Positions 54,070 through 64,000 of a DNA stretch of 64,000 nucleotides are shown here, in pieces. Source of the DNA: a virus. The stretch is from IMG/VR virus record IMGVR_UViG_3300020160_000328, positions 1 to 64,000 of that record; one strand, 5' to 3'. The first letter of the stretch is position 1. Each line of letters begins with the position of its first letter. A program made the translations under genes and the position numbers. Below the pieces are notes generated by a model. The model was given only the letters and a program-made list of their open reading frames with translations. It ran no database searches and was not told where the DNA came from.

Positions 54070-54237
54070 ATGTATAGATTTCACATATCATATAAAGACC
54101 TTGAGAAGAATGATAAATTCTTAAGAGGTGCTAATGTTATTCTTCAAGAAGATAATATTATAGAAGCATTGCGTACATTTCAAAATGAGTATCATAACAC
54201 AGAGATTCAAGGAGTCTTAAGATCAATTGTAGAGTAA
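54070..54237 (+). CDS. 55-aa hypothetical protein (MYRFHISYKDLEKNDKFLRG...)
   Basis: Stop overlaps the AAA+ start (TAATG coupling). Confidence 0.6.
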   Translation: MYRFHISYKDLEKNDKFLRGANVILQEDNIIEALRTFQNEYHNTEIQGVLRSIVE

Positions 54238-55568
54238 TGCACGAAGAAAATAAATACGAAGTAGCAGAAGTAATTGAAGATAAGGGAACAATAGTACCTG
54301 ACTTTGATTTAGATAGATTAGCTAAAGACATTGATGATGTCTTTCAAAAGCAATTAGAAAGAAAAATAAGTGAACTTAGATTAGATTCTAATAAATTGTT
54401 ACATGAAGTTGATGATAAATTAACTGAACAATTTACAGGATTTAAACAAAGAGTTGACTCTATATTTCCTGATATTAAAGAAAGATTAGTAGAGGAAATA
54501 CAAAGAGGTAGAACTATTATTGTTTTACCTAGTACACAAGAAATTAATGTACAACATATGGATCATCCTGTAACTGAAGGTGCTATTAAATCACTACAGT
54601 TACAAAGAAAACTTATGTTAGTAGGTCCAGCAGGAACAGGTAAGACTACAATGGTAGAGAAAATAGCAAAATCATTAGATATTGCATTTTATAAATACTC
54701 TTGTTCTAGAGATTCATCTGTACATGATTTATTAGGTTATAAACAACCAACTTCAGAAACATATTTAGAAACAACATTTCTAAATGCTTATGAAAATGGT
54801 GGTATATTCCTTGTAGATGAATATGATGCAATGTCTGGAGATATGGCTCTATTCTTTAATGGTGTAGCAGATAATTCTAAATTCATATCTATTCCTCATA
54901 GAGATACTAAACCACAAGCAGAGAAACACAAAGACTTTTATTTAGTTATGTGTGGTAATACTTGGGGTAAAGGTTCTACTGATTATTCAGGTAGAGATTT
55001 TCAAGATATGGCTCTAATGGATAGATTTAGATTTTGTAGACATCATGTTGGTTATCATCATTTACTTGAAAAAAAGTTTATGAAACATAATTATGAGAGT
55101 ATATCAAGATTAAGATCTGCATTAGAAAATGTAGGTTCTTATTTATCTACAAGAAATGTAGAAGATATTGCTATTTTAATTGAGTGTGATGTACCATTTA
55201 CTAATATATTGGATATGGTTCTTCAAGATCTTGCAGAAGATGATAAAAGAAGAATTAAAGATTCATTAAGAAGTGAAAGAGTTACAAAATCAGCACCAGT
55301 TCAAAGAGAGGTACAAGAACCACAAAGACCTAATTTTGATCCTACTTTAAATGTTAGAGATGGTCAAGGTAGAATCTTTAAGTTAACAGATTTAATGAAA
55401 GCTTATCCAGTTAATCAACCACATAGAATGGAACAATTAAAGACAAGAGATAAAGTTCTACATGGTAGATACTTAGGTATGTTAATGCAACAAAGTATAC
55501 CTACATCTGGTATGGTAAGTAGTGATTGGGAGGACCATAATGGAGTTATTAGATCAAGTAGCTGGTAA
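54237..55568 (+). CDS. MoxR/CbbQ/CobS-like AAA+ ATPase
   Basis: GPAGTGKT, FLVDEYD, CGNTWGKG, DMALMDRF. Confidence 0.9.
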   Translation: MHEENKYEVAEVIEDKGTIVPDFDLDRLAKDIDDVFQKQLERKISELRLDSNKLLHEVDDKLTEQFTGFKQRVDSIFPDIKERLVEEIQRGRTIIVLPSTQEINVQHMDHPVTEGAIKSLQLQRKLMLVGPAGTGKTTMVEKIAKSLDIAFYKYSCSRDSSVHDLLGYKQPTSETYLETTFLNAYENGGIFLVDEYDAMSGDMALFFNGVADNSKFISIPHRDTKPQAEKHKDFYLVMCGNTWGKGSTDYSGRDFQDMALMDRFRFCRHHVGYHHLLEKKFMKHNYESISRLRSALENVGSYLSTRNVEDIAILIECDVPFTNILDMVLQDLAEDDKRRIKDSLRSERVTKSAPVQREVQEPQRPNFDPTLNVRDGQGRIFKLTDLMKAYPVNQPHRMEQLKTRDKVLHGRYLGMLMQQSIPTSGMVSSDWEDHNGVIRSSSW

Positions 55569-56377
55569 TGAAACCAACATTCTTATATAAGACCTTAGAA
55601 TCAGGTTCTAAACTTATAAGATTTGATAATCTAGGTGATATATATTATTTTGATGAAGAAGAGAATAATCCTAGAGGATTAGGACATAGAGCTTCAGAAG
55701 AATACTTTAGAGATAGAAATATCTTAACATCTAGAAAACAGTTAATGATACAGAAAGCTCAAAAAGAGCTTTCTGTTGATAAAGAGTTCTTAGATTTAGT
55801 TTATAAAGCTAAATCAGCTAAAAGAGATTTTAAGTTAAATAAATTTGGAGGTAATTTATCTATGCCACATTATGCTGCACAAAATGATAAAGTATTTAAG
55901 AAAGGAACACCTGGTGCAAAGAAATCATCTTTGAATATGGCATTCCAAGTAGGTACATTCAGTGGTGGTAATTATGATGAATCTTTTACAAGGATACTAA
56001 AGACTATATTAATGTGTCAAGCAATGAATATTAGTGTAAGTATTGATGTATTTGATTCAGATACTAGAGCAATAGGTGGTAGAAATGGTTATGTTATATG
56101 TAATGTAGCTAAATCTAATGAAAAGATAAACTTCAGAAATATATTAGCTTCATCTCATTCAGATTTCTTTAGTACTACATTATTTAATGGTTATAGTGCT
56201 TCAGGATGTCAAGAACATATTGGTAGATTTCTTCCACAATCTTTAATTGTGAGAGATTTAGGTCCAATGTATGATGTCATTGGAGGTAATATGCTATTAG
56301 ATGGTATGGAAGATGAACAAAAACAAAAACAAATGGTAAGTAAAATTCTTAAAATAGGTATCAATGGGTCAAGATAA
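55568..56377 (+). CDS. Probable vWA-like partner of the AAA+ ATPase (degenerate MIDAS)
   Basis: Coupled to the AAA+ gene; GG.LS.P.Y motif and alpha/beta pattern; no clear DxSxS. Confidence 0.45.
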   Translation: MKPTFLYKTLESGSKLIRFDNLGDIYYFDEEENNPRGLGHRASEEYFRDRNILTSRKQLMIQKAQKELSVDKEFLDLVYKAKSAKRDFKLNKFGGNLSMPHYAAQNDKVFKKGTPGAKKSSLNMAFQVGTFSGGNYDESFTRILKTILMCQAMNISVSIDVFDSDTRAIGGRNGYVICNVAKSNEKINFRNILASSHSDFFSTTLFNGYSASGCQEHIGRFLPQSLIVRDLGPMYDVIGGNMLLDGMEDEQKQKQMVSKILKIGINGSR

Positions 56378-58038: not shown

Positions 58039-59730
58039 ATGACTAAATCTAATTCAAAATTAGCTAGTATTATAGGTGAAAAAAAGCCTAAACAAGAATT
58101 AGTAGAAGCTAAAGCTATCCCAAAACCTGATGCTAAGAATCAACAAGGATTACCTGCTTATACACAAGATATGTGGTTAAAATTACTTACAATGTTAAAT
58201 ACATTGAAGTTACAACCACAATATTACAGAACAGAACAGAAGACATTAAAGGAATTACAAGATCTTATTAAGCTTTGTGCTACACAAGATTTGTATTTTA
58301 CTTGTCAATGTATTGTATATTCTAGATGTCTTGGAGAAGGTATGAGAACTATTTCTCATGCAGCAGCAGTATTTGTAGCTCCTTACATTTCAGGTCAAGA
58401 ATACTCTAAAAGATTCTATGGACCTTGGGATAAGAAAAAGAAAAGAGGTGGATTAATCTATAGACCTGATGATATGAGTGAAATCATATCAGGATTTGTA
58501 GCTTTAAATGGTGAGTATAAAACTACCACTATTACCACAAAAGAAGGTACTTCTACTACTGTAGATATTTCAGGTACTAAGTTAACTAATGCAATGAAGA
58601 AAGGTTTTAAAGCTGCTATTGAATCATATGATACATATAGTTTGCTTAAATACAAATCTTCATTAATTGATGTTATTAATTTAGTACATCCAAAACCTTC
58701 AGAATCTCAAGCTACTGTTAAAGTAGAAGGAGAAGATGTTTACACTATTGATGCTATTATGAGAGGTATGAATGTACTAGCTGAAACTTGGGAAGTATCT
58801 CAAGGTGAAGCAGGTCAGATAGTAGCTAAAGCTGTAAAAGAAGGTAAACTAGATGAAACTGAAGCTAAAGAAGTATTAACTCAAGCTAAAGCTGATAATT
58901 GGGCTGAATTGTTAGATAATAACAAATTACCTATACTAGCTTGTCTAAGAAACTTAAGAAACATTCTTATTAACAATCCTACACAGGCTACTGTTGATAA
59001 AGTATGTGCATTAGTTTCTAATCCTAAGTTAATACTTGAAGGAAAGATATTTCCTTATCAATTAGATTTATCTAATGAGATTATGCTTACTGAGTTTAAT
59101 GATGGTAAAGCAAGACAAATATCACAAGCATTAGCTAAAGGATATGAACTAGCTATACCTAATCTTAAAGCTTTATTACCAGGTGATAATGTAATCTATT
59201 TAGACCAATCAGGTTCAATGGGTACACCTATTATATTGAGTGGTAAAGATAGAAAGTATGGTAAATCTCAATGTATTGATAAAGCTGCCCTAATTGCTGC
59301 TACAATAGCTAAAGCAACTAATGCTGATATTATTGTATTTGGTTCAACTGCTAAATATGTATCTTATAATCCTAATTTAGATGTATTCACATTAGCTAAA
59401 CAATTATCTTCTGCTCATATGGGTGGAACTAATTTGTCTACAGCTTGGAATGCAGCTCAAAACTCTGGTAAGAAATATGATAGAGTATTTATCTTATCAG
59501 ATAATGAAGTAAATCAAGGTAGTACATATAATGCTTATACATCTTATTTAAGAGCTGTAGGTAGTCCTTATGTATATTCTGTAGATCTAGCTGCTTATGG
59601 TACAAATTGTATTGCAGGTGATAAAGTTAGATATTACTATGGTTATGGATTTAGTATGTTTGATGATATTGCATCATCAGAATTTAATGCTAATTATCAT
59701 ATTGAGAAAGTTAAACAAGTAATTATATAA
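58039..59730 (+). CDS. rsr: TROVE/Ro60 (Rsr-like) RNA-binding protein
   Basis: 563 aa; N..G.PAY, GMRT, RPDDM.EI, Y.LLKY, DVINLVHPKP, TWE, LRNLRNI, PYQ; C-terminal vWA with DQSGSM, GGTN, ILSDNE, YSVDL..YG. Confidence 0.92.
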   Translation: MTKSNSKLASIIGEKKPKQELVEAKAIPKPDAKNQQGLPAYTQDMWLKLLTMLNTLKLQPQYYRTEQKTLKELQDLIKLCATQDLYFTCQCIVYSRCLGEGMRTISHAAAVFVAPYISGQEYSKRFYGPWDKKKKRGGLIYRPDDMSEIISGFVALNGEYKTTTITTKEGTSTTVDISGTKLTNAMKKGFKAAIESYDTYSLLKYKSSLIDVINLVHPKPSESQATVKVEGEDVYTIDAIMRGMNVLAETWEVSQGEAGQIVAKAVKEGKLDETEAKEVLTQAKADNWAELLDNNKLPILACLRNLRNILINNPTQATVDKVCALVSNPKLILEGKIFPYQLDLSNEIMLTEFNDGKARQISQALAKGYELAIPNLKALLPGDNVIYLDQSGSMGTPIILSGKDRKYGKSQCIDKAALIAATIAKATNADIIVFGSTAKYVSYNPNLDVFTLAKQLSSAHMGGTNLSTAWNAAQNSGKKYDRVFILSDNEVNQGSTYNAYTSYLRAVGSPYVYSVDLAAYGTNCIAGDKVRYYYGYGFSMFDDIASSEFNANYHIEKVKQVII

Positions 59731-59732
59731 AA

Positions 59733-59981
59733 ATGGCAGTATTTACAGCAAAGGATAAGATCCAAGAATTAAAAGATAAGAGTGCTAATGCACTATCAAT
59801 CTTTAGAAAGACAGTCTCTGATTTGAATGGAGTTAATAACTCTATTACATCAGAGATTAAAGACAGAGAGAGTAAAATAGTTGCATTGAAAGATGAATGT
59901 ACTTCACTTAGTGGAATACAATCAGAAAACACTCAATTTATTACTAAAATTAATGAGTTCTTAGGAACTCCAAATTCTTAA
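59733..59981 (+). CDS. Coiled-coil hypothetical protein
   Basis: 82 aa with a heptad pattern. Confidence 0.6.
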   Translation: MAVFTAKDKIQELKDKSANALSIFRKTVSDLNGVNNSITSEIKDRESKIVALKDECTSLSGIQSENTQFITKINEFLGTPNS

Positions 59982-59984
59982 GTT

Positions 59985-60311
59985 ATGTTTATAGATTATA
60001 AAGATCAAGAATTAGCTTTTAGATTTAGACACAACACAAATCCTTCTATTGATATCCCAAGAGGTACTGAATGTACTGTTACAGATAGAGAAGGTAATTT
60101 TGTAGCTAAATCATTTGCAAAATTACATCCAAAGGATAACTTTGATAAAGCTAAAGGTAGAGAAATTGCCTTTGGAAGAGCTTTACAAGAGTTTGTACCA
60201 AAAGAGGATAGATTCCAATTTTGGGAAAAGTATTCTAATTGGAGAACAGAATTTCCTAGAATAGTTCTAGGAACAAAGAAACCAGCTAAAGATAAATTAA
60301 CAATAGTATGA
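59985..60311 (+). CDS. Conserved small phage protein (A.LHP.D.FD...G..IA..RAL motif)
   Basis: GTECTV...SFAKLHPKDNFDKAKGREIAFGRAL. Confidence 0.6.
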   Translation: MFIDYKDQELAFRFRHNTNPSIDIPRGTECTVTDREGNFVAKSFAKLHPKDNFDKAKGREIAFGRALQEFVPKEDRFQFWEKYSNWRTEFPRIVLGTKKPAKDKLTIV

Positions 60312-60694
60312 AAAAAGTAATTTTCTTAGTGCTTTTAAGCATTATGTTTATCTCTTGTAGTGAAAACTACAGTAATGGAGAAAGAGTAGGTTATGTAACC
60401 AAGTTTTCTGAAAAGGGACTCTTATTCAAATCACATGAAGGTGAATTAAACTTGTCACAAACAGGTATGAACTCAGCAGGAGTGTTTGAATTTTCCATTG
60501 ACAATGATAATGTACCAGTAGATGTTGTTAAGAAATTAGATTCAGCTCAGAGGACTGGTGATAGGGTAAAACTTATATATCATGAAACTATAGGTTGGAA
60601 TTGGTTTGGCAACAGAGGAGATACAAATCACTTTGTAACTACTTGTGAAATACTCACAAATAAGTCTGTTGTGAAAGATACAATTAAGAATTAA
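60308..60694 (+). CDS. Lipoprotein
   Basis: MKKVIFLVLLSIMFISC lipobox; YSNGERVG..TKFS.KG..FK..EGEL. Confidence 0.7.
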   Translation: MKKVIFLVLLSIMFISCSENYSNGERVGYVTKFSEKGLLFKSHEGELNLSQTGMNSAGVFEFSIDNDNVPVDVVKKLDSAQRTGDRVKLIYHETIGWNWFGNRGDTNHFVTTCEILTNKSVVKDTIKN

Positions 60695-60705
60695 TAAAAA
60701 TATTT

Positions 60706-60755
60706 AAAATATTTAACCTATCTCTTGGTAGGTTAAATATTTTTCTTTAAATTTG
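60706..60755 (+). promoter_or_regulatory. Terminator hairpin overlapping a Bacteroidota promoter that likely drives the tmRNA/tRNA/Y-RNA region
   Basis: AAAATATTTAACCTATC/GGTAGGTTAAATATTTT hairpin; TTG 60725-60727, 20-nt spacer, TAAATTTG 60748-60755. Confidence 0.65.
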
Positions 60756-60765
60756 CACAGTTGAA

Positions 60766-60969
60766 ATGGAAATAACTATTGATAAGACCTATTTACTTAA
60801 ACCTCTTATAGTTGATGTGAAAGTAGCTAGTGATGGTAAGTTAAGAGATATATTAACTTTAGTAGGACATATGTATCTATATGGTAGAATAAAAGGTAGA
60901 TATAGTTATCATAAAATCCTTGATGAAGCAATTGAAGAAGAAACAAAAAGAAGAAAAACAAGGGAGTGA
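60766..60969 (+). CDS. Hypothetical protein
   Basis: 67 aa, directly after the promoter; stop overlaps the tmRNA 5' end. Confidence 0.5.
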   Translation: MEITIDKTYLLKPLIVDVKVASDGKLRDILTLVGHMYLYGRIKGRYSYHKILDEAIEEETKRRKTRE

Positions 60970-61299
60970 CATGGAATTGACTACCTATTATATAGTATAT
61001 AATTCAGCCTAGAGAGATAACTAGTAAAACTAAGGTGAAATAAGTAAATGGAAAAGATTCAAAACAAATCGAAGCTAACATGACTGTAGTACATAACATC
61101 TTAAATGGTGGTGTATCAGTTAAATCAACTCAAAGAGTAGAAATGGCATTAGCAGCATAAAACTTATAGGTTAGTAAGTTCCTTAATACTTACAAAGCAT
61201 ACAAAAATATCTAACTTAAAGATATAAAAGAAAAGTAAGCTGTAAAAAATTATATATCTTGAAGTATGTAACACGGGAGTTCGAGTCTCCCCACTTCCA
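60962..61299 (+). ncRNA. ssrA: tmRNA
   Basis: 5' GGGAGTGACATGGAATTGAC; 3' T-arm GGGAGTTCGAGTCTCCC plus CACTTCC-A; G3:U70 Ala identity pair; internal tag ORF ending MALAA*. Confidence 0.93.
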
Positions 61300-61311
61300 C
61301 AATATAATACA

Positions 61312-61426
61312 ATAGGGTAGTTATAGTAAACTTACTTCGTGAAATTGGTATACACATTTGTCTTAAGAACAAACTTTTGCTGGTTCAAGTCCAGCAGTAA
61401 TAAATGTTTACTAACTTTCTCCCTAT
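61312..61426 (+). ncRNA. Y-RNA-like element E1 with tRNA-Leu(TAA)-like cargo
   Basis: Stems ATAGGG/CCCTAT and TAGTAAAC/GTTTACTA; TTACTTC at 61332; D, anticodon (TAA) and T arms inside. Confidence 0.75.
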
Positions 61427-61430
61427 AAAT

Positions 61431-61503
61431 GGTCTATAGGTCAAATGGTTAAGATATCCCACTGTCTCTGGGTATGGAAAGGGTTCGACTCCCTTATAGA
61501 CTG
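61431..61503 (+). tRNA. tRNA-Asp(GTC)
   Basis: Cloverleaf; loop CTGTCTC; T-loop TTCGACT. Confidence 0.9.
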
Positions 61504-61505
61504 CA

Positions 61506-61627
61506 AATAAGAATAGTAATAATTAACTTACTTCGTGCTTTTTGGAAAGCATTTCACTTTTAATGAAACAATCAGGTTCAAATCCTGCGGGAGAGATCCC
61601 ACTAGTTAATTAAATTTCTTTCTTATT
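61506..61627 (+). ncRNA. Y-RNA-like element E2 with tRNA-Lys(TTT)-like arms
   Basis: Stems AATAAGAA/TTCTTATT and TAATTAAC/GTTAATTA; TTACTTC at 61528; arm TTTCA-CTTTTAA-TGAAA; T-arm CAGG-TTCAAAT-CCTG; extra GGGA/TCCC hairpin. Confidence 0.75.
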
Positions 61628-61631
61628 ATTT

Positions 61632-61703
61632 GCCAAATTAACACAATGGTAGTGTACTGCATTTGTAACGCAGAGGTTATAAGTTCGAATCTTATATTTG
61701 GCT
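61632..61703 (+). tRNA. tRNA-Thr(TGT)
   Basis: Acceptor GCCAAAT/ATTTGGC; loop TTTGTAA. Confidence 0.9.
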
Positions 61704-61733
61704 CAATGTGTTCATTGATTTATTGGTTATAAT

Positions 61734-61807
61734 AGCTCTATAGCTCATTAGGATAGAGCAACAGATTTCTAATCTGTGGGTGGTAGGTTCGAATCCTACT
61801 AGGGCTA
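61734..61807 (+). tRNA. tRNA-Arg(TCT)
   Basis: ACAGA-TTTCTAA-TCTGT; canonical D and T arms. Confidence 0.92.
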
Positions 61808-61811
61808 CTAC

Positions 61812-62028
61812 AAGAGTGGTAAAAAATAGGTTACTTCGCAAAAATTCTATGAGAGTTCTTCTCATAAAACTTGATACTAATGGTATCTTACTAAACACTA
61901 TGAAAATTAGACAGTTAAATGGGGTAAATTTAAACAAACGAAATTTAACAAACTTTTACTAATTTAGTTATAAATTGGAACCTTTATTGGAAGGATAAAC
62001 CAATAACCCTATTTTTAATTTCCCTCTT
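61812..62028 (+). ncRNA. Y-RNA-like element E3 with a long multi-hairpin cargo
   Basis: Stems AAGAG/CTCTT and AAAATAGG/CCTATTTT; TTACTTC at 61831; internal hairpins TATGAGA/TCTCATA, GATAC/GTATC, TTATTGG/CCAATAA. Confidence 0.7.
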
Positions 62029-62033
62029 TTTAA

Positions 62034-62119
62034 GGACTGATAGCCTAGAGGTCAGGCAGCAGACTGTTAATCTGCCCAAAGGAGCAATCCCTACATTGGT
62101 TCGAATCCAATTCAGTCTT
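62034..62119 (+). tRNA. tRNA-Asn(GTT) with a long variable arm
   Basis: GCAGA-CTGTTAA-TCTGC; variable arm GGA-GCAA-TCC. Confidence 0.85.
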
Positions 62120-62122
62120 CAA

Positions 62123-62189
62123 AGGAATAGTAATATAAGAGTTACTTCGTAAGCTATACAAAAAATAAACTCTTATAATTTTCTTTCCT
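62123..62189 (+). ncRNA. Y-RNA-like element E4 (minimal, A-rich loop)
   Basis: Stems AGGAA/TTCCT and TATAAGAG/CTCTTATA; TTACTTC at 62142. Confidence 0.72.
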
Positions 62190-62193
62190 AAAT

Positions 62194-62267
62194 GGTCTTT
62201 TAGCTCAATTGGTTAGAGCAGTCCCCTCATAAGGGAAAGGTTCCAGGTTCAAGTCCTGGGAGGACCA
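62194..62267 (+). tRNA. tRNA with CAT anticodon (Ile2 or elongator Met)
   Basis: Loop CTCATAA; canonical D arm GCTCAATTGGTTAGAGC. Confidence 0.88.
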
Positions 62268-62268
62268 C

Positions 62269-62340
62269 AAATAGTATACTAAAAACAGCACTACAACAGT
62301 AATTTATATAGAGTGTGATTGTTTACTGATGTACTATTTA
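62269..62340 (+). ncRNA. Irregular long hairpin between tRNAs (candidate ncRNA)
   Basis: Nested pairings AAATAGTATA/TGTACTATTT, AAACAG/TTGTTT and CACT/AGTG. Confidence 0.35.
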
Positions 62341-62343
62341 TTT

Positions 62344-62414
62344 ACCTTGTTTGCATAATGGAAGTGCCATTGTTTTACATGCAATAGGAGGTAGTTCGAT
62401 TCTACCACAAGGTA
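62344..62414 (+). tRNA. tRNA-Val(TAC)
   Basis: Acceptor ACCTTGT/ACAAGGT; loop TTTACAT. Confidence 0.85.
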
Positions 62415-62419
62415 CAAAC

Positions 62420-62490
62420 GCATCGTAGCTTATGGAAGCAACAGGTCTCCAAAACCTTGTATGGAGTAGGTTCGATTCCTACACTTTGTG
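62420..62490 (+). tRNA. tRNA-Trp(CCA), acceptor stem with mismatches
   Basis: AGGT-CTCCAAA-ACCT; T arm GTAGG-TTCGATT-CCTAC; acceptor GCATCGT/ACTTTGT. Confidence 0.7.
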
Positions 62491-62495
62491 CAAAA

Positions 62496-62568
62496 GGGTC
62501 TCTGGTGTAACTGGTGTGCACGCTAGTCTGAAGAACTAGAGGATAAGGTTCGAGTCCTCGGGCTTCCA
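62496..62568 (+). tRNA. tRNA-Phe(GAA), acceptor stem with mismatches
   Basis: CTAGT-CTGAAGA-ACTAG; acceptor GGGTCTC/GGCTTCC. Confidence 0.72.
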
Positions 62569-62584
62569 CAAATAAATTAAAGTT

Positions 62585-62746
62585 ATGGGTTACAAAGATG
62601 AAAATATAAAACACAGAGTAGGTGTATTAACACCTAAGAAAGGTTTTAAATGTCCTAAATGTGGGGATGATAAGATCTATACAAAAGCAAGCCTTGTTGT
62701 ATGTCCTTCTTGTAAGAAGATAGTTGAAGGTAAAGATTTAAAATAA
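62585..62746 (+). CDS. 53-aa zinc-ribbon protein
   Basis: MGYKDENIKHRVGVLTPKKGFKCPKCGDDKIYTKASLVVCPSCKKIVEGKDLK, two CxxC; not in the ORF track. Confidence 0.7.
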   Translation: MGYKDENIKHRVGVLTPKKGFKCPKCGDDKIYTKASLVVCPSCKKIVEGKDLK

Positions 62747-62753
62747 AATATAT

Positions 62754-62828
62754 TGTGGAGTGGACTGGAAGTGGTGCCAGCTCAGTCTCATAAGCTGAAT
62801 TATGTGAGTTCGAGTCTCACCTCCGCAA
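62754..62828 (+). tRNA. tRNA-Met(CAT)
   Basis: Acceptor TGTGGAG/CTCCGCA; TCAGT-CTCATAA-GCTGA. Confidence 0.8.
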
Positions 62829-62833
62829 CAAAG

Positions 62834-62974
62834 AAGAGTAGTAAAAAGAAAGTTACTTCTATGTGGCAGACGTAGTATAGGTTCAAATCCTGTCATACTC
62901 CCTAAAGTAATACAAATGGAGTATGTAGTGTAATTGGTTAGCACACGAAAATTACTTTCTTTATTTTCTCTCTT
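62834..62974 (+). ncRNA. Y-RNA-like element E5, YrlA-type, with a circularly permuted tRNA-His-like module
   Basis: Stems AAGAG/CTCTT and AAAGAAAG/CTTTCTTT; TTACTTC at 62853; order is GTG remnant, T-arm ATAGG-TTCAAAT-CCTGT, loop-closed acceptor CATACTCC/GGAGTATG, then D-arm TA-GTGTAATTGGTTAGCAC. Confidence 0.85.
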
Positions 62975-62979
62975 TAATT

Positions 62980-63050
62980 CTAGAAACGAAGCTAGGTTTC
63001 ATGCCACACTTGGACTGTGGAGTACGCAAGTTCGAATCTTGCTTTCTAGA
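62980..63050 (+). tRNA. tRNA-Pro(TGG), atypical D arm
   Basis: Acceptor CTAGAAA/TTTCTAG; CCACA-CTTGGAC-TGTGG. Confidence 0.8.
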
Positions 63051-63071
63051 CTAATTTAAAACTAAACTATC

Positions 63072-63263
63072 ATGTCAAAATCAGAAACATCAAGTAAAGG
63101 TATAGGTTTTGGAGGATTATTAACAGTACTATTTATTGGTTTGAAACTTACAAATCATATTGCATGGTCTTGGTGGTGGGTATTATCTCCACTATGGTTA
63201 CCTGCTGTAATAGTATTAGGAATAGTCTTAATTGCTTTAATTTTTAAAGCTGTATTAACTTAA
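63072..63263 (+). CDS. Small membrane protein
   Basis: LTVLFIGLKLT..IAWSWWWVLSPLW, a common small phage membrane-protein motif. Confidence 0.8.
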   Translation: MSKSETSSKGIGFGGLLTVLFIGLKLTNHIAWSWWWVLSPLWLPAVIVLGIVLIALIFKAVLT

Positions 63264-63268
63264 TACAT

Positions 63269-63339
63269 TCCCCTGAAGCTTTAAGGTGAAGCACATCACT
63301 TTTAATGATGGGAAGTTGGGTCAGTACCACCCAGGGGAA
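63269..63339 (+). tRNA. tRNA-Lys(TTT), non-canonical T loop
   Basis: Acceptor TCCCCTG/CAGGGGA; CATCA-CTTTTAA-TGATG; T loop GTCAGTA. Confidence 0.78.
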
Positions 63340-63344
63340 CAATT

Positions 63345-63427
63345 GCAAGAGTGGCTTAATAACGAACTGGTATAGTAAGTAGTTTTAGAAACTACTAGCT
63401 TTGTGGGTTCAACTCCCACCTCTTGTA
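63345..63427 (+). tRNA. tRNA-Leu(TAG), extended D region and short variable arm
   Basis: Acceptor GCAAGAG/CTCTTGT; GTAGT-TTTAGAA-ACTAC. Confidence 0.75.
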
Positions 63428-63434
63428 CAACAAT

Positions 63435-63520
63435 GCCTTCATGGTGGAATGGTAGACACGAGGGACTTAAAATCCCTTCCTCAGAAATGGGGGGTGCAAG
63501 TTCGAGTCTTGCTGGAGGTA
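63435..63520 (+). tRNA. tRNA-Leu(TAA)
   Basis: AGGGA-CTTAAAA-TCCCT; long variable arm. Confidence 0.92.
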
Positions 63521-63649
63521 CAAGTATTGCAAAGATACTGATTAAAAACCTGTTCCCTGTCCTCATAACAGCTATAAGGCAGCTAGGAGTTGAATGTACA
63601 TTCGGGGTTATAAAAAGTACAAGGGTAAGTTAGGGTTCTTACCAAATTT

Positions 63650-63735
63650 GGAGAGGTGTCAGAGATGGATTATTGTATCACTCTTGAAAAGTGATGGGTG
63701 TAACAGCCCCCTGGGTTCGAATCCCAGTCTCTCCT
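63650..63735 (+). tRNA. tRNA-Ser(TGA)
   Basis: Acceptor GGAGAGG/TCTCTCC; TCACT-CTTGAAA-AGTGA; long variable arm. Confidence 0.9.
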
Positions 63736-63900
63736 CAACATCCTGTACCCTTGAATCTTTGCTTTATATGTGGATAAAGCTCCCTGTATAAACATAAAAA
63801 GAGTAAACTCGTGAGCAAGTAATATTGTGGCAAACAGGATTAACTTGTGGCAAGCAGGTACTGGACCTGAAATAAAAGGGTAATAGAATAAGGTCCAAAT

Positions 63901-63985
63901 AGAGAGGTGGCAGAGTGGTTTATTGCACAGTCCTGCTAAGACTGCGGGTGTAAAAGCTCCAAGAGTTCGAATCTCTTATTCTGCA
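63901..63985 (+). tRNA. tRNA-Ser(GCT), poorly paired acceptor stem
   Basis: CAGTC-CTGCTAA-GACTG with good D, variable and T arms; acceptor AGAGAGG/ATTCTGC has 3 mismatches. Confidence 0.65.
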
Positions 63986-64000
63986 CATTTTTGCTGCGTT

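What the first reader, a model, noticed from the sequence alone, without database searches (positions are those of the whole stretch)
58039..62974. Phage Ro60/TROVE gene plus five modular Y-RNA-like ncRNAs sharing one scaffold with different cargo
Seen: five elements sit between tRNAs (61312-61426, 61506-61627, 61812-62028, 62123-62189, 62834-62974). Each has an outer stem, an internal loop (5' TRGTWA / 3' ANTTTCY), an 8-bp inner stem and an invariant TTACTTC. The inner stems differ in sequence yet all pair perfectly: TAGTAAAC/GTTTACTA, TAATTAAC/GTTAATTA, AAAATAGG/CCTATTTT, TATAAGAG/CTCTTATA, AAAGAAAG/CTTTCTTT. The outer stems covary too. The inserted cargo ranges from ~20 to ~160 nt and differs in each element. 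Established: Ro60/Rsr binds a bulged terminal stem of Y RNAs, and bacterial YrlA RNAs carry a tRNA-like effector module. Inference: the phage encodes one Ro60 that loads a panel of different RNA effector modules. These could be tRNA decoys against anticodon nucleases or tethers for RNA repair/decay enzymes, co-transcribed with the tRNAs.
Basis: partly seen in the sequence, partly recalled or inferred. Interest (0 to 1): 0.95.

Follow-up and report, generated by a model that had tools for sequence, protein, structure and literature searches.

The report
Phage Ro60 with six partner RNAs
This freshwater phage encodes the ring-shaped RNA-binding protein Ro60 and, between its tRNA genes, six small RNAs that share one conserved base-paired "handle" but carry different bodies (several mimic tRNA); the same handle lies beside Ro60 genes in many phages and bacteria, so these are an uncatalogued, many-membered branch of the known Y RNAs and not a new kind of system.

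Summary
The 563-aa ORF (58039-59730) is a true Ro60 (TROVE + Ro60-vWA; profile match to phage phiLo Ro60, PDB 9KOP). All five elements have the stated architecture, and a sixth lies just past the window (genome 64066-64146).

The handle is a real RNA family. A database scan with the 5' half alone recovered elements that also carry the unsearched 3' half. In 121 phage and 87 cellular copies, 96-97% of stem positions pair, with heavy compensatory change.

The family tracks Ro60:
- 16 of 22 handle-bearing viral records encode Ro60, against 0 of 24 controls.
- 65 of 77 viral and 56 of 80 cellular Ro60 loci have hits, every one on the Ro60 strand, mostly within 1 kb.

The bodies fall into classes: short A-rich loops, YrlA-order tRNA mimics (El5), normal-order tRNA mimics with anticodon loops (El1 UAA, El2 UUU), and long idiosyncratic inserts (El3).

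Rfam's YrlA model scores only 31-40 bits (cut-off 69) on relatives and finds nothing here. The known Ro-binding motif GNCGAA is absent.

Verdict: a new, diverged and expanded variant of the known Ro60/Y-RNA (YrlA/YrlB) system. Ro60 binding and any decoy or tether role remain untested inference. This scan has found the same family before in several other phage genomes.

The parts
58039..59730 (+). Ro60 (TROVE + Ro60-type vWA) gene, 563 aa; the only TROVE gene in the genome
   Evidence: Pfam TROVE and vWA_Ro60 both score above their cut-offs. PHROG 850 'RNA-binding protein' matches at E 2e-29. The family profile A3 matches phage phiLo Ro60 9KOP/9L5Y at E 7e-30 over residues 29-528, and also 1YVP, 9NEN and 2NVO. 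The MIDAS-like D389-x-S391-x-S393 is invariant in 10 homologues. There is a single TROVE hit in the genome.
60706..60743 (+). Terminator-like 17-bp hairpin with a T-rich tail. It lies after the last ORF of the Ro60 gene block and before the RNA array, and is followed by TAAATTTG.
   Evidence: Consensus scan and sequence. This is a consensus match only.
60962..61302 (+). tmRNA-like gene at the head of the array (context; it forms the 5' neighbour of El1)
   Evidence: Rfam tmRNA scores 29.2 bits, E 3e-9, below the cut-off of 47. The counterpart in relative L184 scores 60.6 bits, above the cut-off. An ...ALAA-stop reading frame is visible.
61312..61426 (+). El1: handle plus a normal-order tRNA mimic (D arm, anticodon arm with loop CUUAAGA, T arm). 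UUACU pairs with AGUAA as a 5-bp pseudo-acceptor.
   Evidence: Fold; R1 40.3 bits. ARAGORN calls it tRNA-Leu(taa) and Rfam tRNA gives 45 bits for 61330-61403. Anatomy.
61506..61627 (+). El2: handle plus a normal-order tRNA mimic. Its anticodon loop CUUUUAA is identical to that of the phage tRNA-Lys(UUU) at 63269-63339. It also has a T arm and an extra GAGA-tetraloop hairpin.
   Evidence: Fold; R1 39.1 bits. Partial Rfam tRNA match at 61537-61587, 32 bits. Loop comparison.
61812..62028 (+). El3: handle (UGGUAA variant, with the compensating ...UUUCC) plus a 170-nt insert with no tRNA arm. The insert is poorly conserved even in close relatives.
   Evidence: Perfect stem pairing. Counterparts at the same slot in L145 and L146, with only the handle conserved. 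A 193-nt contig of metatranscriptome run X9 covers 61830-62023 (weak evidence).
62123..62189 (+). El4: minimal element, the handle plus a 21-nt A-rich loop (YrlB-like)
   Evidence: R1 62.7 bits, E 3e-11; fold. An RNA-run contig covers 62121-62196 (weak evidence).
62834..62974 (+). El5: handle plus a permuted tRNA mimic in YrlA order (V hairpin, T arm, closed 8-bp acceptor-like hairpin, D arm)
   Evidence: Fold; R1 40.2 bits; anatomy.
61431..63985 (+). tRNA genes that flank every element at 0-9 nt (Asp, Thr, Arg, Asn, Met, Val, Trp, Phe, Met, Lys, Leu, Ser and others). The array continues to genome position 66204. El6 lies at genome 64066-64146, between tRNA-Glu and tRNA-Ala.
   Evidence: ARAGORN and Rfam; gaps computed.

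Best explanation
The six elements are Y-RNA-type partner RNAs of the phage's own Ro60.

Transcription and release (inferred): they are transcribed as part of the tmRNA/tRNA array. Because each lies within 0-9 nt of a tRNA or tmRNA-like gene on both sides, the enzymes that trim the neighbouring tRNAs (RNase P, RNase Z or equivalents) probably release them.

The handle (shown as structure; binding inferred): the two ends of each RNA pair to form a constant handle. It consists of the outer stem, a bulged pyrimidine, two conserved pairs (R-G with C-Y), an asymmetric internal loop (YRA opposite NNNUUU), an 8-bp stem of free sequence, and the near-invariant junction strand UUACUUCG. By position, the handle corresponds to the Ro-binding stem of YrlA and YrlB, and it is the likely docking site for Ro60.

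The cargo (inferred role): the variable body is displayed from the handle. In this phage the bodies are two tRNA mimics in normal arm order that show Leu-UAA-like and Lys-UUU anticodon loops, one YrlA-order permuted tRNA mimic, two minimal A-rich loops and one long idiosyncratic insert. My best guess for the role is that one Ro60 is loaded with a panel of tRNA look-alikes that engage tRNA-recognising host factors. They would act either as baits or decoys for tRNA-targeting defence nucleases, or as tethers that bring Ro60 to an RNA-processing enzyme, as Y RNA does with PNPase. I give about 0.8 to 'Ro60 partner RNAs' and about 0.3 to the decoy or counter-defence role.
For: (1) Family reality. 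A scan of IMG/VR with only TAGTAA-N8-TTACTTCG returned about 31 distinct elements on 22 records. These also carry the unsearched complementary stem, the A.TTTCT loop and the outer stem.

(2) Covariation. In 121 distinct phage copies, 96.4% of cells pair; the covariation score is 0.837 against 0.197 for shuffles and 0.05-0.14 for slid partners. In 87 cellular copies the figures are 97.2% and 0.862 against 0.209. The A-U to G-C switch next to the bulge is compensated (UAG...UCU versus UGG...UCC). G.U pairs number 62 and A.C pairs 15, which fits an RNA read from this strand.

(3) Link to Ro60.
- 16 of 22 handle-bearing records encode Ro60, against 0 of 24 control records (Fisher p 7.5e-8).
- Among loci chosen by Ro60 protein alone, 65 of 77 viral loci give 154 hits, and 56 of 80 cellular loci have a hit at E<=0.01 (106 hits at E<=0.1 overall).
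- Every hit is on the Ro60 strand. 63 of 100 lie within 1 kb of the gene.
- No other neighbouring gene is conserved with them.

(4) Kinship with YrlA. Relatives with T-arm-first cargo get whole-model YrlA matches at 31-40 bits, E 1e-5 to 5e-3. UUAC sits where YrlA has its YUAY (PMC4201824).

(5) Precedent. Phage Ro60 binds phage-encoded Y-like RNAs and host PNPase in vitro (PMC12135203). A Ro60-like protein of coliphage Bas63, encoded just upstream of tRNA genes, counters the Ppl defence (PMC11482910).

(6) Fast turnover. The same tRNA slots in relatives whose Ro60 is 72-73% identical hold different cargo or anticodon loops. A strain about 98% identical replaces El1 plus tRNA-Asp with 563 other letters.
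Against: - No binding data exist.
- The motif known to contact Ro60 (GGUCCGA in animals, GNCGAAN0-1G in YrlA/YrlB, CGAA in phiLo Yrl1/2) is absent from all six elements.
- Rfam YrlA and Y_RNA find nothing in the window, even at E<10.
- Here the RNAs lie 1.6-4.4 kb downstream of Ro60, behind a terminator-like hairpin. They are not directly beside the gene.
- Expression evidence is thin: low-depth contigs (about 3-4x) of a single metatranscriptome, which may contain DNA.
- One nearly complete 31-kb phage record has a handle but no Ro60 (G014).
- The decoy idea rests only on anticodon-loop likeness and on turnover.
Confidence: 0.75

Rival explanations
1. RYPER-like tether only. The RNAs are true Ro60 ligands, but the bodies serve mainly to recruit a host exoribonuclease such as PNPase for structured-RNA decay, as in Deinococcus, Salmonella and phage phiLo. 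On this reading the tRNA likeness has no decoy role.
For: This is the only experimentally shown role of bacterial and phage Y RNAs (PMC4201824; PMC12135203). About half of all family members carry only a short A-rich loop, which cannot mimic tRNA. The handle also occurs at ordinary chromosomal rsr loci.
Against: It does not explain why one phage keeps six different bodies. It does not explain why anticodon loops are retained, or why cargo changes between near-identical strains. The genome has no PNPase-related or RtcB gene, although the host's enzymes could serve.
Confidence: 0.3
2. The handle is a processing or stabilising cassette of tRNA operons, or the ligand of a protein other than Ro60. 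Its nearness to Ro60 would then be indirect.
For: In this phage every element abuts tRNA genes and lies behind a terminator-like site, apart from Ro60. A neighbouring DUF7873 gene with its own tRNA-like RNA has been noted in this genome. One phage record has a handle but no Ro60.
Against: In many relatives and bacteria the elements lie directly next to Ro60 with no tRNA genes between them, for example L044, L294 and L296. Ro60 is the only gene that travels with them. Strand agreement with Ro60 is 154 of 154 hits in viral loci at E<=0.01 and 106 of 106 in cellular loci at E<=0.1.
Confidence: 0.08
3. El1 and El2 are unusual precursors of working tRNAs (Leu-UAA, Lys-UUU), and the handle is a leader-trailer helix that is removed.
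For: ARAGORN and Rfam call El1 a tRNA at 45 bits and El2 a partial tRNA at 32 bits. The D, anticodon and T arms are in normal order.
Against: El1 has only a 5-bp pseudo-acceptor, with two mismatches and no free 3' end. It also lacks the long variable arm of bacterial tRNA-Leu. El2 has no acceptor partner at all, and an extra hairpin in its place. The phage already has standard tRNA-Leu(UAA) and tRNA-Lys(UUU) genes.
Confidence: 0.05
4. The elements are selfish inverted-repeat mini-elements that have spread between tRNA genes.
For: There are multiple copies with terminal complementary ends. Presence and absence differ between close strains.
Against: The stems differ in sequence between copies while still pairing. 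G.U pairs exceed A.C pairs 62 to 15. Orientation is uniform, loop motifs are conserved, and the family is linked to Ro60 across phyla.
Confidence: 0.03

Closest known systems
YrlA / YrlB Y RNAs with Rsr (Ro60) of Salmonella, Mycobacterium and mycobacteriophages (Chen et al. 2014, PMC4201824; Rfam RF02553)
   Same: - Encoded near Ro60 on the same strand.
- The ends pair into a two-helix stem with an asymmetric internal loop.
- A YUAY (here UUAC) follows the inner stem.
- One class of body is a tRNA mimic in the order V, T arm, closed acceptor hairpin, D arm (El5).
- A short partner lacks a tRNA domain (El4, El6, like YrlB).
- T-arm-first relatives give whole-model YrlA matches at E 1e-5.
   Different: - Scores stay at 31-40 bits against a cut-off of 69, and there is no match in this window.
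- The GNCGAAN0-1G motif is replaced by Y-R-G-Y-R-A plus an invariant UUACUUCG.
- There are six copies per genome (up to about eight in relatives) rather than one or two.
- Extra body types occur: normal-order tRNA mimics with intact anticodon loops, and permuted mimics that keep the anticodon arm.
- The RNAs are embedded in a tRNA array.
Thermus phage phiLo Ro60 with Yrl1 and Yrl2 (PMC12135203; PDB 9KOP, 9L5Y)
   Same: A phage-encoded Ro60 with phage-encoded Y-like RNAs. It is the closest solved relative of this protein family (E 7e-30).
   Different: The phiLo RNAs were picked by a CGAA motif in a large internal bulge. There are two of them, upstream of the gene, and no tRNA-like bodies were reported.
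Coliphage Bas63 gp130, a Ro60-like counter-defence protein (PhageMaP preprint, PMC11482910)
   Same: A Ro60-like gene lies directly upstream of a phage tRNA cluster. The authors speculate that some of the 'tRNAs' are Y RNAs.
   Different: No RNA partners were identified there. No sequence relation was tested here. The anti-Ppl role is shown only for that phage.
Class I RNAs of dictyostelid amoebae (PMC7919456)
   Same: A short end-to-end stem of free sequence is followed by a conserved unpaired motif that includes UUAC..C, then a variable body.
   Different: They are eukaryotic, have a single 6-bp stem and bind an RRM protein. The conserved A10 and A11 of their 11-nt motif are not matched here, and no Rfam hit appears in this window at E<10. 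I treat this as a resemblance only.

Membership tests
Ro60 / TROVE protein | TROVE (HEAT-repeat ring) domain above Pfam's cut-off | tested here: met
   PF05731 scores 32.1 bits against a cut-off of 23. The genome search gives 33 bits.
Ro60 / TROVE protein | C-terminal Ro60-type vWA domain with a MIDAS motif | tested here: met
   PF25045 scores 28.5 bits against a cut-off of 27.7. D389-x-S391-x-S393 is invariant in 10 homologues.
Ro60 / TROVE protein | Full-length homology to Ro60 proteins of solved structure | tested here: met
   Profile A3 matches 9KOP/9L5Y at E 7e-30 (residues 29-528), 1YVP at 2e-9, 9NEN at 1e-8 and 2NVO at 2e-6. No structure was predicted here.
Y RNA (Ro60 partner RNA, general) | Encoded close to Ro60 on the same strand | tested here: met
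   In this phage the RNAs lie 1.6-4.4 kb downstream on the same strand. Family-wide, all 154 hits at E<=0.01 in viral Ro60 loci and all 106 hits at E<=0.1 in cellular Ro60 loci are on the Ro60 strand, and 63 of 100 lie within 1 kb.
Y RNA (Ro60 partner RNA, general) | The 5' and 3' ends pair into a stem with a conserved bulged or internal-loop region, and a variable module lies beyond it | tested here: met
   Folds. Covariation is shown. Conserved columns are listed.
Y RNA (Ro60 partner RNA, general) | Known Ro-contact motif (GGUCCGA, GNCGAAN0-1G or CGAA) | tested here: not met
   The motif is absent from El1-El6.
Y RNA (Ro60 partner RNA, general) | Physical binding to Ro60 | not testable with these tools
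   No RNA-protein complex tool is available. EMSA or RIP is needed.
YrlA (Rfam RF02553) | Score at or above the gathering cut-off of 69 bits | tested here: not met
   There is no hit in the window at E<10. The best score in the genome is 15 bits, and it falls on true tRNAs. Relatives of the same handle family score 31-40 bits.
YrlA (Rfam RF02553) | tRNA-like domain in the order V, T arm, closed acceptor-like hairpin, D arm | tested here: met
   Met for El5 only, and for 34 relatives. El1 and El2 have normal tRNA arm order. El3, El4 and El6 have no tRNA arms.
tRNA (for El1 and El2) | 7-bp acceptor stem with a free 3' end; a long variable arm in the case of tRNA-Leu | tested here: not met
   El1 has a 5-bp UUACU/AGUAA helix that continues into the handle, and no long variable arm. 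El2 has no acceptor partner.
Dictyostelid Class I RNA | 6-bp terminal stem plus an 11-nt motif with conserved T3, C6, C9, A10 and A11 | tested here: not met
   UUAC..C fits T3, C6 and C9, but positions 10-11 are G and N here. The handle has two helices. There is no Rfam match.

The most novel reading that the evidence does not exclude
The handle is a universal adaptor that lets a single Ro60 display a fast-changing library of tRNA look-alikes, including anticodon loops identical to those of real tRNAs (Lys-UUU, Leu-UAA-like). The phage would use this library as Ro60-protected decoys or inhibitors against tRNA-cleaving or tRNA-sensing host defences, and it would swap cargo between strains as part of an arms race. 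That would give Y RNAs, whose role in bacteria is still unclear, a defined biological function.
Probability: 0.2. Interest if true: 0.85.

Novelty: new variant of a known kind. Interest (0 to 1): 0.6.

Why it matters
The role of the tRNA-like domain of bacterial Y RNAs is an open question.

This family offers hundreds of natural variants in which one conserved handle carries no body, a permuted tRNA, a normal-order tRNA with an anticodon loop, or something else. Often six to eight of these lie beside a single Ro60 gene.

The family is missing from Rfam, and the YrlA model does not detect it.

It also occurs next to rsr in cultured bacteria: Elizabethkingia, Chryseobacterium, Lewinella cohaerens, Prosthecobacter fluviatilis and Brevifollis gellanilyticus. 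Binding and function could therefore be tested directly.

For genome annotation, it explains several false or odd 'tRNA' calls in phage tRNA arrays, such as the 'tRNA-Leu(taa)' at 61330-61403.

Tried and rejected
- Rfam at E<10 over 60900-64000 found no Y_RNA, YrlA or other family on the elements. The YrlA model run on the whole genome gave only 15 bits, on true tRNAs.
- DNA search of isolate phages matched only the tRNA genes. Protein search found only distant Ro60s, at 24-31% identity.
- I looked for a conserved protein partner among 13 neighbouring ORFs. None travels with Ro60 beyond the closest relatives, including the AAA_5/MoxR-like ATPase at 54237-55568.
- The genome has no RtcB. There is one sub-threshold nucleotidyl-transferase ligase hit at 88.7 kb.
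- I tested whether GUAA of the UAGUAA loop pairs with UUAC of the junction. It shows no covariation: U9 to C in 20 copies and U34 to A in 12 copies are not compensated. Rejected.
- Model R1 cannot span El3's 170-nt insert, even with filters off. El3 therefore rests on pattern, pairing and synteny.
- Metatranscriptome run X9 gave only low-depth contigs over the tmRNA-like gene, El3, El4 and parts of Ro60. Other parts had no cover. This shows neither expression nor silence.
- The supplementary tables of Chen et al. 2014 are not held. I could not check whether any Bacteroidota or Verrucomicrobia members of this family were already on their YrlA list.
- The Annual Review on bacterial Ro60 is not held.

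Full report
**What the window is.** The window is the first 64 kb of a complete 97,777-bp virus record with direct terminal repeats. Near-identical DNA occurs in freshwater and freshwater-sediment metagenomes (X2 and X3 were laid).

**The protein.** The ORF 58039-59730 (+) encodes 563 aa.
- It matches Pfam TROVE and the Ro60-type vWA domain, both above their cut-offs, and PHROG 850.
- A profile of it and nine homologues matches the Ro60 of Thermus phage phiLo over nearly its whole length (9KOP/9L5Y, E 7e-30). It also matches Xenopus, human and Deinococcus Ro60.
- A DxSxS MIDAS-like motif is invariant.
- It is the only TROVE gene in the genome. There is no RtcB.

**The RNAs in this phage.** A sixth lies at genome 64066-64146, just past the window.

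The shared handle reads, from the 5' end:
1. An outer stem.
2. A bulged U.
3. A-G paired with C-U.
4. The loop UAA opposite about five or six nucleotides ending UUU.
5. An 8-bp stem of free sequence.
6. UUACUUC(G/U).

The cargo follows, and then the complementary strands. Each element lies 0-9 nt from a tRNA or tmRNA-like gene on both sides. There is no terminator-like site on the + strand inside the array. A strong one at 60706-60743 separates the Ro60 gene block from the array. I infer that the elements are made from the array transcript and released by tRNA end-processing.

**Is it more than chance?**
- A scan of IMG/VR with the 5' half alone (14 fixed bases) gave many chance hits. It also gave about 31 distinct elements on 22 records that carry the unsearched 3' half.
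- A covariance model built from 11 short elements of other phages finds El1, El2, El4, El5 and El6 at E 1e-5 to 1e-11.
- In 121 distinct phage copies, 96.4% of stem cells pair. The covariation score is 0.837, against 0.197 for shuffles and at most 0.14 for slid partners.
- In 87 cellular copies the values are 97.2% and 0.862 against 0.209.
- These alignments were fitted to the model, which favours pairing, but the margins are large. The initial set was found without any pairing requirement on the search side.
- G.U pairs outnumber A.C pairs 62 to 15.

**Link to Ro60.**
- Forward test: 16 of 22 handle-bearing records encode a Ro60 homologue (31-74% identity). Five of the six without one are 7-26% complete fragments. 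None of 24 control records that matched the 14-base pattern by chance has one (p 7.5e-8).
- Reverse test: of 77 viral loci chosen by Ro60 protein alone, 65 have hits at E<=0.01. All 154 hits are on the Ro60 strand.
- Of 80 cellular loci, 56 have hits at E<=0.01 (106 hits at E<=0.1 overall). Again all are on the Ro60 strand, usually just upstream of the gene.
- Carriers include Saprospiraceae, Chryseobacterium, Elizabethkingia, Lewinella, Prosthecobacter, Brevifollis, Dehalococcoidia and Saccharibacteria. I read one Elizabethkingia locus by eye.
- 63 of 100 elements lie within 1 kb of Ro60.
- No other neighbouring gene is conserved with them.

**Cargo.** Across the family the bodies fall into four groups:
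- Short A-rich loops of 14-42 nt, about half of all copies.
- T-arm-first permuted tRNA mimics (34 copies). Some of these also keep an anticodon arm.
- T-arm-last mimics in normal tRNA order, with 7-nt anticodon loops of many kinds (19 copies).
- A few long inserts.

In this phage:
- El1 and El2 are normal-order mimics. El2's loop equals that of the phage tRNA-Lys(UUU), and El1's is one base from that of tRNA-Leu(UAA).
- El5 has the YrlA order.
- El4 and El6 are minimal.
- El3 carries 170 nt that are barely conserved even in relatives whose Ro60 is 72-73% identical.
- El1 and El2 cannot be working tRNAs, because they lack a proper acceptor end.

The same tRNA slots in relatives hold different cargo. 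A strain about 98% identical replaces El1 plus tRNA-Asp, and also a tRNA-Met, with other sequence.

**Relation to known families.** Ro60 with nearby Y RNAs is established in bacteria and phages.
- T-arm-first relatives of this family get whole-model YrlA matches at only 31-40 bits (cut-off 69), driven by the T, acceptor and D arms. The handle is misaligned in these matches.
- Nothing in this window matches YrlA.
- The known Ro-contact motif is absent. UUAC sits where YrlA has YUAY.

I therefore class the elements as a diverged, expanded branch of YrlA/YrlB-type Y RNAs. They are not members of the Rfam family, and they are not a new kind of system.

**Function.**
- Shown: the RNA structure, its conservation and its association with Ro60.
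- Inferred: Ro60 binds the handle, and the body engages tRNA-recognising factors.
- The tether role has precedent (PNPase). A counter-defence role has one precedent for a phage Ro60-like protein, and it fits the rapid cargo turnover. Neither was tested here.

**Expression.** Expression evidence is weak. Low-depth contigs of one metatranscriptome cover the tmRNA-like gene, almost exactly El3 (61830-62023) and El4.

**Earlier notes.** Earlier notes of this scan describe the same handle family in several other phage genomes and reach similar verdicts. I did not count them as evidence.

Noticed in passing
window 60962-61302 (+): A phage-encoded tmRNA-like gene sits at the head of the tRNA array. 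Rfam tmRNA scores 29 bits (E 3e-9), below the cut-off, and ARAGORN does not call it. A frame ending ...ALAA-stop is visible. The counterpart in relative L184 scores 60.6 bits, above the cut-off.
   Followed up: partly
window 60962-61300 joined to 62121-62196 (run X9, contig 21): A 456-nt contig from a metatranscriptome joins the end of the tmRNA-like gene (61300), plus 'CT', to El4. Its two ends overlap by 30 nt, so it closes into a cycle of tmRNA plus El4. The DNA contig of the same sample has 563 other letters after 61300 instead. This could be another strain with El4-like copies on both sides of the tmRNA, a tandem or circular RNA form, or an assembly artefact. Depth is only 4.3.
   Followed up: no
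window 61300-61501, 62223-62334, 62750-62823: In a strain about 98% identical (runs X2 and X3), El1 plus tRNA-Asp is replaced by 563 letters, 110 nt are missing between tRNA-Met and tRNA-Val, and the second tRNA-Met is replaced by 439 letters. The RNA array is a hot spot of replacement, while the flanking genes are collinear.
   Followed up: partly
window 54237-56377 (+): An AAA_5/MoxR-like ATPase (443 aa; PHROG 249) and an overlapping 269-aa ORF of no known family lie 1.7 kb upstream of the vWA-bearing Ro60. The pair is conserved only in the two closest relatives (L145, L146), so it is not a general partner of Ro60.
   Followed up: partly
window 62980-63050, 63269-63339, 63345-63427: Three tRNA genes are seen by Rfam but missed by ARAGORN at default settings. 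With relaxed settings they read as Ser(gga) without a long variable arm, Lys(ttt), and Leu(tag) with an odd D region. These may be further atypical tRNAs or mimics.
   Followed up: partly
L065 (IMGVR_UViG_3300009169_000062, 31,446 bp, rated 98% complete): A nearly complete small phage carries one high-scoring handle element (70.8 bits) but no Ro60 gene. It may be an orphan Y RNA that uses the host's Rsr.
   Followed up: no
L261, L266, L252, L278 (Prosthecobacter, Brevifollis and other Verrucomicrobia): On long bacterial contigs, an array of 6-14 tRNA genes runs directly into one or two handle elements and then the rsr gene. This is the same tRNA-array, Y-RNA, Ro60 layout as in the phage. It may be an integrated element.
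   Followed up: no
window 60744-60760: Directly after the terminator-like hairpin lies TAAATTTG. It fits the TAnnTTTG -7 element of Bacteroidota promoters (from my own knowledge) and would start the tmRNA/tRNA/Y-RNA unit. The motif is not enriched in the array.
   Followed up: partly
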